This document shows positions 15,701 to 18,700 of a stretch of DNA of 64,000 bases, piece after piece. The stretch comes from Escherichia coli. GTDB taxonomy: Bacteria > Pseudomonadota > Gammaproteobacteria > Enterobacterales > Enterobacteriaceae. Every line of letters begins with the position of its first letter. Positions within the stretch are counted from its first letter, which is position 1. Where the stretch lies: assembly GCF_050920415.1 (NCBI RefSeq), contig NZ_CP169309.1. One strand, 5' to 3'. A program made the position numbers.

Positions 15701-18700
15701 AAGGTGCGGTTGAGTTAATCATCTGCAACGCGCGATCTTCCAGTGCTGCCGGAACTAAAAGGAATTTAGGCGCAATATTCAGCACTTCGCCATTTTTGTC
15801 CTTCTGTGTGCGCATCAGGTGACGTGCTGCACTAAGTCCCGGTGTTGTCAGTCCTGCTTCAATCAGGTTGCTGTGTTTTTTGTCAAACAGCGCTATTCCA
15901 TCAGAAAGTTTTACGTTGCCTGTAAGCACCAGATTAACCAGATTTCCCACCGTTCTTGATGCTGCACGGCCCATAGCCATTGGCACCGTTGATAACTGAT
16001 CAAGGTCATCATTGATTATCGCCTGGCGGGTAATGCTGAAAATATTCCCGTAAGTAGCCAGCGCGATGGGTTCACCGCGATCGCTGGTGGTGATGTATTT
16101 ATATTCTGCCCCTTCCGGCACTTTGTTTAACGTAGAGAAACCATTCAGACCAACGCGGCGGGCTTCACGAAAGTTTGAAAGGGAACCTTTTTTCGTCCAC
16201 TGGCGGAATGTTTCGCCGCTGTGCTCCCAGCCTGCAAGCACTGATTTTTCAGCACCACCAGCAAGGATATCGGTAAAATCGCTGCTGCTGTGGTTGAATG
16301 CCGCGTTTACTATCTGCGAGCGTGTTCCGTAGCTGCCCGTGCTTATACCACGATGGGTTAATGATGCCTGTGCCATATCGAAAAGGCTCATCATGGCGTA
16401 AGGATTACCGCGTTCGGCCCGTTCGTGACCAAGACGCGCATTAAGCCCCTGGCGCATTGCATCGCCGGTTATGTTGCCGTTATCCGTGTACGCGTAGTAA
16501 AGATTTGCGGGGGTGGTTTTATTTGTTGGCGTTGATTCTTTACCCATAGCGAGTAAAAGGCGTTCGCGTGCATTCTCAACGCTACATTCTGAATCAGCAA
16601 GACAACTTATAGCCAGGTCGTTATATCTTCCGTTGAACGTGCCAAACAATTCACGGATGCCGTTAAGTCGTTCCTGTTCGCCACTGCCAGTTTTCTGGCT
16701 GATCATGCTTTTAATTTTTTCCGGCATATTTGAAAAATCTCCGATTCGTTTTGATTCAATTCGGGCCATTGCTGTAATCGCGGGTATAACCTCATCTGCG
16801 AAGCCGTTAGCCTTACACTCATTGCCATCCATCCAGGTTTCCGCCTCCATCATGGCGGTGATTTCCTGTTTGCTCCTGCCCGTTCTTCCGGCGTAGGTTT
16901 CAGCCATCGTGTCGCCCAGCTTGTCCATCAGGTCAGCAAAGCGGCGAACGTCGCCCGACACTCCGGCAGTAACACCACGGGGGGCATGTATCATCATCAT
17001 TGCGTTTTCAGGCATAACGATGTGATCGCCACACATGGCAATAAACGAGGCCATAGAAGCCGCCATGCCTTCAATGTGTACAATTTTCTTTGCCGGATGA
17101 TTTTTCAGGGCGTTATAGATAGCCAGCCCTTCAAAGATGTCGCCACCAGGTGAATGGATGCGAAGATGGATTTCAGACGCATTACCACACGCGTTGATCT
17201 CGTCAGTAAGTGCCGATGCTTTTACACCGTACCCGCCGATCTCGTCATAAATGCGCACATAGACAACATCTGCCATAGCCTTAATGGAAAACCATGTTTT
17301 CATAGCCAGGCTCCTAACGTTGCCCTGTACCAGTATTCAACCGCGCTGCGTGTGATTTGTCCTTTCGTGGGTACCGGCATACCCGGGTGATTGTCTTTGA
17401 TGAACTGCTGATAGCGTTCGATCTTCTCCATAGTTCCGGCGTCTATGTGTACCGTGGCACTTTTATCCGGCTTTCTGGTGTTGTTCTCTGGCATAAATCC
17501 GCCTCCGTTTTGATTAACGGGCATCATTATTGATCGATAAAAGTAATAGATAAATCATTTTCTACCTGAAAATTAGATTATATTTTTTCTGATTATTCTC
17601 AGAGAGGCAAAGCCATTGACGCATTTTTGCTATTGAAGCAATATTAAGACTCGTCATCCTGGCGATAAAAACTCCTTTGTCGTGTAAAAGCGCCTCCGGT
17701 AACAGCAATCGAGGGCGCTTTTTTTTGCGCCTGTTTTTTTGTAAATGTTTTCGGGAACGCTCCAGTGATGAACAAAAAACAACCTGATTCGACACTAAAA
17801 ATTTTTATTCCTCAATATATCAATAACTTATAGTGGTGGTGATGGTGCCATAAAAATCAAAAAATGCGCCTTTTTCCGCGCCCGCCCGCCCCGTGGACAG
17901 GCCCACCAAGCCAGGAGTACCTACAAAAAAGCCGGATTGCTCCGGCTGTGTGCTCACTTCTTCGGTTATTCTCCAGCGCTTTTAACGTTGATGGTTGTAA
18001 CCTGTTCCGCTTCGGCAATCTCCCATTCTGTCAGCGTGGCAAAGTTTGCCGCCGCTGTGGTCATGAATGCGCTTATCAGGTCGGGATGTGCTTTCGCGTA
18101 TCCTTCCCCCGTGTTGCGGTCGATGATTTTTATCGCCACTCTCAGCCAGTGCTCTGTAAGGTCAATGGCGCGGTTATGCTGCTTCTTCTGATTATTAAGT
18201 TTTCCTGATGTGCGCATTTTTATTTTTACCCCCTCGTTTAAAAAGTTTTGAGTTGTGCCTCCCCTTGTCTACCTTATCTACCTTACTGGCCACCATGCCA
18301 GTAATGGCGCGGCTTTCAGTGGGGTAGAGTGCTTTTATCCACTATCTACCCCGTATCTACCTCCCTGTCTGATTCAGGTAAAATCAGGTAGAGAGGGTAG
18401 ATAGTAGGTAGACAGTAAAAAAAGGCTGTCTACCCAAGTTAATGTACTGAATTAAATGTATTTTTCTTTACTCAGGTAGACAGGGTAGACAGCCATTGCA
18501 ACAAATTATAAAAACGCGTCGCAATCGTCTGTTGTTATTGCGTTAGTCTGCGTTACTCCTTTAACTTTCCGCGTAATATATTCATGTCCGTAAACTTTCG
18601 CGGCTGGCTTCATAGCCTTGCCAAAGTCATTTACGTTTAGCGGTTTGCTCCTGCCTGCGTACGCCATAAACGCCAGATAGACGCGGTAAAGGCTGTTTCT

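What the first reader, a model, noticed from the sequence alone, without database searches (positions are those of the whole stretch)
17849..17938. Copy B of the terminator-plus-GC-box module
Second copy of the module described at 15312-15404, here between the 83-aa gene and the 75-aa/capsid genes. Plus-strand translation across both copies produces spurious ORFs sharing FPRPPAP, confirming the nucleotide-level repeat.
Basis: seen in the sequence. Interest (0 to 1): 0.5.

Follow-up and report, generated by a model that had tools for sequence, protein, structure and literature searches.

The report
Second cos packaging site of a phage satellite
The "terminator plus GC box" is a transcription terminator followed by a lambda-type cos DNA-packaging site, one of two different cos sites that a 10.8-kb phage satellite (PICI) probably uses to get packaged by Shiga-toxin-type helper phages; this kind of element is already known.

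Summary
The repeat is real: 17850-17947 and 15311-15408 are 79% identical ungapped, and homology continues with gaps for about 230 nt. All genes here run on the minus strand of a ~10.8-kb PICI-type satellite at tRNA-Pro. On that strand each copy is a terminator hairpin with a T-run, followed by a lambdoid cos site. The cos site has a cosQ heptamer (GGGTCCT in copy A, AGGTACT in copy B) at lambda's spacing from cosN, a lambda-like cosN (GGGGCGGGCGGG|CGCGG), and a cosB with an IHF consensus. The same sequence lies between Rz and terS in STEC prophages such as Sp15/VT1-Sakai and CP-1639. The two copies share cosQ-cosN but differ in cosB. Copy A matches the Sp15 class (81%) and copy B the CP-1639 class (87%); cross-pairs are 63-66%. 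In 45 surveyed sites followed by a terS or TerS-like gene, cosB class tracked TerS N-domain class exactly. No phage site had the abutting hairpin. All 20 multi-cos loci combined different cosB classes. The window has no TerS or Rpp gene. Two cos sites per E. coli PICI are published (EcCICFT073), so this is a new member of a known kind. The data suggest one cos per helper specificity class.

The parts
17930..17947 (-). Copy B: intrinsic-terminator hairpin AGCCGGAGCAATCCGGCT. Its T-run (17925-17930) is separated from the cosQ-like heptamer by 2 nt.
   Evidence: The same hairpin precedes the first cos in many related islands. In CFT073 it occurs with no cos after it.
17916..17922 (-). Copy B: cosQ-like heptamer AGGTACT, 5 of 7 matches to lambda cosQ GGGTCCT.
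   Evidence: This variant is seen only here, in L011 and in L063. L048 and L061 have GGGTCCT at the same site.
17876..17895 (-). Copy B: cosN region CAC GGGGCGGGCGGG CGCGG. The predicted cohesive-end segment is 17881-17892; the exact nick positions are not determined.
   Evidence: Alignment to lambda ACG|GGGCGGCGACCT|CGCGG with the same cosQ-to-nick spacing. Linear record LR595868.1 opens at CCACGGGGCGGG. Coordinates.
17735..17875 (-). Copy B: cosB of the CP-1639 class. It holds the class-specific block TGGCACCATCACCACCAC at the R3 position (17833-17850), the IHF consensus TAAGTTATTGATA (17818-17830), the family-wide block GGTTGTTTTTTGTTC (17770-17784) and the end block TTTACAAAAAA (17735-17745).
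   Evidence: 87% to CP-1639 cosB, 63% to Sp15 cosB; cosB class 10.
15391..15408 (-). Copy A: terminator hairpin AGGCGGCACCAGCCGCCT plus T-run, after the capsid-gene stop codon.
15377..15383 (-). Copy A: intact cosQ heptamer GGGTCCT.
15337..15356 (-). Copy A: cosN region, with predicted cohesive-end segment 15342-15353. It is identical to copy B over CACGGGGCGGGCGGGCGCGGAAAAA.
15194..15336 (-). Copy A: cosB of the Sp15 class. It holds the R3-position block TCGTCATCATCATCATGT (15294-15311), an IHF-like site with one mismatch (15278-15290), an inverted R2-like GATGATG (within 15246-15257) and a direct R1-like TTCGACATC (15223-15231).
   Evidence: 81% to Sp15 cosB, 66% to CP-1639 cosB; class 6
15414..17527 (-). 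Cassette between the two cos sites: the 75-aa ORF (17527-17300) and the 629-aa ClpP-like prohead protease/major capsid fusion (17303-15414).
   Evidence: phrog_133, 931 bits; phrog_4934; PGAP product names in relatives
13478..24312 (-). The whole satellite (~10.8 kb): att copies at 24288-24312 (3' end of tRNA-Pro) and 13478-13501 (degenerate), integrase 24089-22830, AlpA-like 22315-22109, primase 20254-18506, 83-aa ORF 18217-17966, 93-aa ORF 15155-14874, PerC-like 14407-14036. There is no terminase, portal or tail gene.

Best explanation
Copy B is a composite of two elements read on the minus strand. The first is the Rho-independent terminator that ends the replication-module transcript after the 83-aa gene. 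The second, 2 nt after the terminator's T-run, is a complete lambdoid cos site: a cosQ-like heptamer, cosN, and a cosB with an IHF site. The element sits in a ~10.8-kb PICI-type phage satellite that has its own integrase, AlpA, primase/ori and a protease-capsid fusion but no terminase.

Inferred mechanism: after a helper prophage is induced, the satellite excises and replicates to concatemers. The helper's TerS N-terminal winged-helix domain, with IHF, binds cosB. TerL nicks cosN to give G-rich cohesive ends of about 11-12 nt. DNA is then packaged in the direction cosB -> 75-aa gene -> capsid gene until a downstream cos is cut.

The island has two co-oriented cos sites, 2,539 bp apart, with the same cosN but different cosB. 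Copy B carries the cosB class of CP-1639/1720a-02-type phages and copy A that of Sp15/VT1-Sakai-type phages. Each should therefore be recognised directly, without Rpp, by a different helper TerS class.

Shown here: sequence homology, anatomy, position in phages, and cosB-TerS class concordance. Inferred: cleavage, packaging, and helper specificity.
For: (1) The core of the module recurs between Rz and terS, the canonical lambdoid cos position, in Sakai prophage Sp15, CP-1639, mEp460, Ayreon and others.
(2) Alignment with lambda: the cosQ heptamer GGGTCCT lies 30 nt before the nick position, as in lambda. It is followed by GGGGCGGGCGGG|CGCGG, compared with lambda GGGCGGCGACCT|CGCGG.
(3) The linear record LR595868.1 is opened at the GC box.
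(4) Copy B has a perfect IHF consensus at bp 63-75 from the predicted left end, just after the R3-position block. Copy A has a one-mismatch IHF site plus an inverted R2-like and a direct R1-like repeat, the lambda R3-I1-R2-R1 layout described in PMC9026076.
(5) Segment identities: cosQ-cosN is 92-97% among copy A, Sp15 and CP-1639. For cosB, A-Sp15 is 81% and B-CP-1639 is 87%, while cross-pairs are 63-66%. Sp15 and CP-1639 TerS differ in the N-domain (35/66 identical) but not the C-domain (88/92).
(6) In the surveyed loci (80 IMG/VR loci plus reference loci), cosB class and TerS N-domain class are one-to-one: ARI 1.0, 45 sites, 5 classes.
(7) The prophage in which the 96%-identical island L011 is embedded has an Sp15-class TerS (63/66). 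Its cosB matches the island's copy-A-type site (84%) and not its copy-B-type site (62%).
(8) tblastn finds no TerS or Rpp homologue in the window.
(9) Experimental precedent: EcCICFT073 carries two functional cos sites and is packaged by helper terminase (PMC6092414, PMC6739421). HE-PICI 11capE shares a 258-bp cos region with its helper (PMC10111431).
(10) Both helper classes are common in complete E. coli genomes (402 and 226 genomes), and at least three strains appear in both hit lists.
Against: Nothing here is experimental: no cleavage, packaging or transfer data exist for this island or for this cosN type. Copy B's cosQ heptamer has two substitutions (AGGTACT), so it may be impaired for packaging termination. 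R2/R1-like repeats were not detected in copy B. The distance between ACG and CGCGG varies from 10 to 12 nt among relatives, so the nick positions and overhang length are uncertain. The LR595868.1 start is 3 nt upstream of the lambda-analogous position and may reflect assembly choices. In EcCICFT073, deleting cos2 increased transfer (PMC6092414), so a second cos is not necessarily beneficial. No helper prophage lies in the 64-kb window.
Confidence: 0.85

Rival explanations
1. The two cos sites are mainly a by-product of modular exchange. The conserved hairpin-cosQ-cosN stretch would act as a homologous-recombination handle through which capsid/packaging cassettes are swapped between satellites and phages. 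Copy B would have arrived with the 75-aa/capsid cassette and need not be used for packaging. It may be decaying, as its altered cosQ could indicate.
For: Relatives carry different cassettes between or next to cos sites: the ClpP/MCP fusion here, and lambda-type gpE/gpD plus Rpp in Nissle and CFT073. The hairpin is conserved upstream of different cos types and occurs without a cos in CFT073. Copy B's cosQ has two substitutions. cos2 of EcCICFT073 is dispensable for lambda and phi80 transfer (PMC6092414).
Against: Copy B's cosN is identical to copy A's, and its cosB is 87% identical to a live phage class, with a perfect IHF consensus. Close relatives L048 and L061 keep an intact GGGTCCT at this site. 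All 20 multi-cos loci are heterotypic, which drift alone does not predict. This rival is not exclusive of the main explanation.
Confidence: 0.15
2. One reading: a terminator followed by a GC-rich regulatory box, such as an operator or promoter element bound by an island regulator (PerC or AlpA), that controls the capsid operon and the 93-aa gene.
For: Both copies lie upstream of island genes, and a separate promoter for the capsid operon must exist somewhere downstream of the terminator.
Against: The same sequence lies between Rz and terS in phages that lack these island regulators. It aligns base for base with lambda cosQ/cosN at the correct spacing. No sigma-70-like promoter was called in either copy.
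Confidence: 0.04
3. The element is a structured RNA or DNA: a small RNA, riboswitch-like leader, or G-quadruplex formed by the G-tracts on the minus strand.
For: Copy A has five G3-4 tracts within about 45 nt on the minus strand.
Against: There is no Rfam match at gathering or permissive thresholds. Folding energies are not better than shuffles (z -0.6 to -1.6) apart from the terminator hairpin. Conservation follows the phage DNA-site pattern and not base-pairing.
Confidence: 0.02

Closest known systems
Bacteriophage lambda cos (cosQ-cosN-cosB)
   Same: The cosQ heptamer GGGTCCT is at the same 30-nt distance from the nick position. The cosN is G-rich and starts (G)GGGCGG, followed by CGCGG. 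An R3-position block is followed by an IHF site. In the homologous phages the site lies between Rz and terS.
   Different: The cohesive-end sequence differs (GGGGCGGGCGGG vs GGGCGGCGACCT), as does cosB. TerS is only about 20% identical to Nu1. Here the site resides in a satellite without terminase genes and is preceded by a terminator, which none of the 43 phage sites has.
cos1 and cos2 of the E. coli PICI EcCICFT073 (Fillol-Salom 2018, 2019)
   Same: Same island family and gene order: int, alpA, pri, small ORFs, capsid module, and a 282-nt terminal ORF. There are two cos sites around the capsid/packaging module with the same cosN but different cosB. A hairpin precedes the co-oriented site.
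   Different: EcCICFT073 has lambda/phage-21-type cosN. Its cos1 cosB is unlike any helper and needs the island protein RppA bound to helper TerS, and its cos2 is inverted. The window's island has an Sp15-type cosN and both sites co-oriented. Both of its cosB regions are phage-like, from two different phage classes, and it has no Rpp/TerS gene.
Helper-type cos in HE-PICI 11capE and in cos SaPIs (SaPIbov5, SaPIbov4)
   Same: The satellite carries a copy of the helper's own cos, including the cosB region, so the unmodified helper terminase packages it. SaPIbov4 is reported to have two putative cos sites (PMC10111431, PMC6092414).
   Different: Those cases involve different helper lineages. A pairing of two different helper specificity classes in one island was not described in the papers I could read.
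P4 satellite cos
   Same: A satellite integrated at a tRNA, with a P4-type integrase and primase, that uses its helper's cos.
   Different: P4 has a single P2-type cos (19-nt ends; from my own knowledge, not tested here) and remodels the capsid through Sid. There is no sequence relation to the site here.

Membership tests
Lambdoid cos site | cosQ heptamer (GGGTCCT) upstream of cosN at a fixed spacing | tested here: met
   Copy A has GGGTCCT 30 nt before the lambda-analogous nick. Copy B has 5 of 7 matches (AGGTACT) at the same spacing, so the feature is only partly met for copy B.
Lambdoid cos site | cosN: a G+C-rich nicking region homologous to a phage cohesive-end sequence | tested here: met
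   CACGGGGCGGGCGGGCGCGG aligns to lambda ACGGGGCGGCGACCTCGCGG. It is identical to the Sp15 site.
Lambdoid cos site | cosB: TerS-binding R element(s) and an IHF site at a fixed distance from cosN | tested here: inconclusive
   The class-specific block lies at bp 43-60, followed by an IHF consensus at bp 63-75 in copy B. R2/R1-like repeats are found in copy A only. cosB class co-varies 1:1 with TerS N-domain class. Binding itself was not tested.
Lambdoid cos site | Homologous site located between the lysis genes and terS in cos phages | tested here: met
   Sp15, CP-1639, mEp460 and Ayreon, the L132 helper, and 43 IMG/VR phage sites.
Lambdoid cos site | Cleavage by terminase to give cohesive ends; sufficiency for packaging or transduction | not testable with these tools
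   The only indirect evidence is that one linear phage record opens at the GC box.
Gram-negative PICI (EcCICFT073 family) | An island of about 10-20 kb at a specific att site, with int, alpA and pri-ori in one direction and no terminase, portal or tail genes | tested here: met
   The island is ~10.8 kb at tRNA-Pro with att repeats. ori-like iterons lie at 18336-18497. There is no TerS or Rpp gene.
Gram-negative PICI (EcCICFT073 family) | Helper-phage-dependent induction, packaging and high-frequency transfer | not testable with these tools
   This requires experiments.
Rpp-dependent packaging redirection | Island-encoded Rpp (TerS-DBD mimic) plus a cosB unlike that of the helper | tested here: not met
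   tblastn with Nissle Rpp-like, lambda Nu1 and three TerS proteins finds nothing significant in the window. The 93-, 75- and 83-aa proteins have no PDB Rpp match. Both cosB regions are phage-like.
Rho-independent terminator | GC-rich hairpin followed by a U-run just downstream of a stop codon on the coding strand | tested here: met
   Found in silico only. The hairpins have dG -12.8 (copy B) and -15.1 (copy A) kcal/mol with a T6 run. The two copies have different but self-complementary stems.

The most novel reading that the evidence does not exclude
E. coli PICIs of this family carry arrays of two or three heterotypic cos sites that work as a set of keys. Each cosB would match one helper recognition specificity: a particular TerS N-domain class, or an Rpp-TerS complex. 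One small satellite could then be packaged by several co-circulating lambdoid helper lineages. In this island the two keys would be the Sp15/VT1-Sakai class and the CP-1639 class of STEC prophages, used directly without Rpp. [quoted passage not shown]
Probability: 0.4. Interest if true: 0.55.

Novelty: new member of a known kind. Interest (0 to 1): 0.35.

Why it matters
The finding turns an anonymous repeat into a functional annotation. It marks the packaging signals of a satellite that lives in Shiga-toxin-producing E. coli and probably rides on Stx-type lambdoid prophages. If each of the two cos sites is read by a different helper terminase class, that would explain how a 10.8-kb island spreads across strains with different prophage sets. 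It would also give a simple, testable answer to a published open question about PICIs with two cos sites. The strict one-to-one cosB/TerS-N-domain classes provide a practical way to predict helper-satellite pairs from sequence alone.

Tried and rejected
- **Known RNA family.** Rfam gave nothing at the module at gathering or permissive thresholds.
- **Structured RNA.** Folding of either strand is not better than shuffles, apart from the hairpin.
- **Rpp or TerS in the island.** PDB sequence searches with the 93-, 75- and 83-aa proteins found nothing relevant. tblastn of TerS, Nu1 and Rpp against the window found nothing significant. The 75-, 93- and 83-aa proteins have no counterpart in the phage late regions examined.
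- **Division of labour** (copy B initiates only, because its cosQ is degenerate). I rejected this as a general rule. The AGGTACT variant occurs only in the window, L011 and L063, while L048 and L061 (99% identical cassette) have GGGTCCT.
- **Hairpin as an integral part of cos.** Rejected, because CFT073 has the same hairpin with no cos after it.
- **Third, Sp15-type cos in EcCICFT073.** It is present in the Nissle island but absent from CFT073 itself.
- **Exact nick sites from record ends.** Only one record opens at the box, and it has no terminal repeat, so this is inconclusive.
- **R2/R1 repeats in copy B.** Not detected at 8 of 10 matches.
- **Helper prophage in the window.** None found; the window has only the two cos sites.
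- **Co-occurrence of the island with helper classes per genome.** This could not be computed, because searches list at most 60 records.

Full report
**Observation.** The repeat exists as described. The segments 15311-15408 and 17850-17947 are 79% identical over 98 nt without gaps, and form the largest repeat family in 12-22 kb. A 22-mer from the GC box occurs exactly twice in the window, against 0 expected by chance. The two plus-strand ORFs that share FPRPPAP are translation artefacts of the repeat.

**Context.** All real genes here are on the minus strand. They form a compact island next to tRNA-Pro(ggg):
- integrase (24089-22830)
- AlpA-like regulator (22315-22109)
- primase (20254-18506)
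- 83-aa ORF (18217-17966)
- copy B of the module
- 75-aa ORF (17527-17300) and a 629-aa ClpP-like prohead protease/major capsid fusion (17303-15414)
- copy A of the module
- 93-aa ORF (15155-14874)
- PerC-like regulator (14407-14036)

The 3' end of the tRNA (24288-24312) is repeated in degenerate form at 13478-13501, so the element is about 10.8 kb. It has no terminase, portal or tail genes, and tblastn finds no TerS or Rpp homologue. This is the architecture of Gram-negative PICIs of the EcCICFT073 family (PMC6092414). Relatives in Nissle 1917, CFT073 and other strains have the same gene order.

**What the module is.** A megablast of the copy-B intergenic region against complete E. coli genomes hit O157:H7 strains over the ~90-nt core. 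In Sakai this core lies in prophage Sp15, between the Rz/Rz1 lysis genes and the small terminase gene. That is the canonical location of a lambdoid cos site. The same holds in CP-1639, mEp460, Ayreon and others.

Alignment with lambda shows:
- the cosQ heptamer GGGTCCT, 30 nt before the nick position, the same spacing as in lambda;
- then GGGGCGGGCGGG|CGCGG, compared with lambda GGGCGGCGACCT|CGCGG.

One linear phage record, LR595868.1, is opened at this box: it ends ...GGTGGCCTG and starts CCACGGGGCGGG.

Downstream of cosN, copy B has a class-specific block at bp 43-60. This is close to the position of lambda R3 at bp 50-65 (PMC9026076). It is followed by a perfect IHF consensus, TAAGTTATTGATA, at bp 63-75. 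Copy A has a one-mismatch IHF site at the same place, plus an inverted R2-like and a direct R1-like repeat of its block. No Rfam family matches the region. Folding is unremarkable except for the hairpin.

**The terminator.** On the minus strand each copy begins with a GC-rich hairpin and T-run soon after the upstream stop codon: 18 nt after it in copy B and 5 nt in copy A. The stems of A and B differ, but each is self-complementary.

I surveyed 112 cos-like sites from the window, reference loci and 80 IMG/VR loci.
- None of the 43 phage sites (those followed by a phage terS) has such a hairpin.
- 40 satellite sites do, with the T-run ending 2 nt before cosQ.
- Phage sites instead have AT-rich or other sequence at that position.

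CFT073 itself has the same hairpin after its PerC gene with no cos behind it. The hairpin is therefore an independent terminator that closes the upstream operon, and cos sites are appended to it. Phages cannot place a terminator there, because their late transcripts must read across cos into the head genes. This last point rests on established lambda biology and is my inference for these phages.

**Two copies, two specificities.** Copy A, Sp15 and CP-1639 are 92-97% identical in the cosQ-cosN segment. In cosB the picture is different:

| Pair | cosB identity |
|---|---|
| Copy A vs Sp15 | 81% |
| Copy B vs CP-1639 | 87% |
| All cross-pairs | 63-66% |

The TerS proteins of Sp15 and CP-1639 are 88/92 identical in the C-terminal part but only 35/66 in the N-terminal part. 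By homology to lambda Nu1, that N-terminal part is the DNA-binding domain (my inference).

Across 45 surveyed sites followed by a TerS or TerS-like gene, average-linkage classes of cosB and of the TerS N-domain correspond one-to-one (adjusted Rand index 1.0, five classes). All 20 multi-cos loci combine different cosB classes, in nine distinct combinations. The class-10 plus class-6 pair of this window recurs in L011, L048 and L061.

A natural test supports matching. The island in L011 is embedded in the terL gene of a prophage. That prophage has an Sp15-class TerS (63/66), and its cosB matches the island's copy-A-type site (84%) but not its copy-B-type site (62%). Both helper classes are common in complete E. 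coli genomes: 402 and 226 genomes, mostly STEC among the listed records, with at least three strains appearing in both hit lists.

**Mechanism.** What is shown here is sequence anatomy, homology, position in phages, and cosB-TerS class concordance. The following steps are inferred.
1. After helper induction the island excises and replicates to concatemers.
2. Helper TerS and IHF bind cosB.
3. TerL nicks cosN.
4. Packaging proceeds from cosB toward the 75-aa and capsid genes and ends at a downstream co-oriented cos.

Four island units (43 kb) would fill a helper-sized head. Whether the island's own protease-capsid fusion makes small heads is unknown. The two sites divide the circle into arcs of 2.54 kb and about 8.3 kb.

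Copy B's cosQ has two substitutions. In lambda, from my own knowledge, cosQ is needed for termination. However, relatives L048 and L061 have an intact heptamer at this site, so I do not build on this.

**Comparison with what is known.** EcCICFT073 was shown experimentally to carry two functional cos sites with a lambda-like cosN. Its cos1 cosB is unlike any helper and is read by an RppA-TerS heterodimer. Deleting cos2 increased transfer. [quoted passage not shown]

I located these sites in CFT073:
- cos1 is co-oriented, upstream of rppA, and has a hairpin.
- cos2 is inverted, next to the 282-nt ORF, with a cosB resembling that of the neighbouring phage 4.

The window's island differs in several ways: an Sp15-type cosN, both sites co-oriented, both cosB regions of phage type, and no Rpp. 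HE-PICI 11capE was reported to share a 258-bp cos region with its helper (PMC10111431), so direct use of a helper cos by PICIs is also known.

**Verdict.** The finding is a real and functionally interpretable element: a terminator plus a lambdoid cos site, the second of two in a PICI. The kind is already known, so I rate it a new member of a known kind with moderate interest. The comparative results are, as far as the papers I could search show, not yet stated:
- a strict cosB-TerS class correspondence;
- uniformly heterotypic cos arrays in satellites;
- the terminator-cos junction found at co-oriented satellite sites and at none of the 43 phage sites.

Together they suggest a testable answer to the published open question.

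Noticed in passing
window 18336-18497: A cluster of direct and inverted iterons (GGGTAGAYAG; e.g. 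TCAGGTAGAGAGGGTAGATAG and TCAGGTAGACAGGGTAGACAG) lies between the primase gene and the 83-aa ORF. This is where PICI replication origins are reported (PMC6092414).
   Followed up: no
L010:7842-7960 (Nissle 1917), compared with L133:200-470 (CFT073): The Nissle EcCICFT073-type island has a third cos site, of Sp15 type (cosB class 6), after its ssb pseudogene, in addition to the two lambda-type sites. CFT073 itself keeps only the terminator hairpin at that position.
   Followed up: partly
IMG/VR loci L016, L031, L032, L055, L058, L060, L069: These satellites have the same layout but encode their own TerS-like protein, 47-49% identical to Sp15 TerS. The gene lies directly after the second cos, whose cosB forms a class with that protein. 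The protein could be a bona fide satellite TerS or an Rpp analogue for this TerS family.
   Followed up: partly
L132:9176-11108 and L011 (NZ_AP042574.1, 1085-1099 kb): A 96%-identical island is inserted in the terL gene of an Sp15-class prophage, in the helper-embedded PICI configuration. The terL halves flank the island.
   Followed up: partly
L009 (lambda right end) and L001:3990-4010 (Sp15): An AT-rich palindrome, TGATAAYCATTATCA, lies immediately upstream of cosQ in lambda and in Sp15-class phages. This is the position where satellites have the GC-rich terminator hairpin.
   Followed up: no
window 17528-17734: The copy-B intergenic region has about 200 nt more than copy A before the 75-aa gene. 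This stretch includes the hairpin GGCGCAAAAAAAAGCGCC (17714-17731), which looks like a terminator on the plus strand, and a probably spurious 77-aa ORF. A promoter for the capsid operon may be here.
   Followed up: no
window 13478-13501 vs 24288-24312: The distal att copy is degenerate (a 1-nt gap and several mismatches). This agrees with the report that PICIs damage the tRNA fragment at attR (PMC10111431).
   Followed up: no
window 10782-13376: An 864-aa autotransporter-like ORF abuts the island's distal end. The island therefore sits between this gene and tRNA-Pro, near the L25 leader at 28084-28109.
   Followed up: no
cosN of relatives (table): The number of bases between ACG and CGCGG in cosN varies from 10 to 12 among closely related sites, for example GGGCGGGCGGG, GGGCGGGCGG and GGGCGGGAGG. 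This could be real variation in cohesive-end length or homopolymer sequencing error.
   Followed up: no
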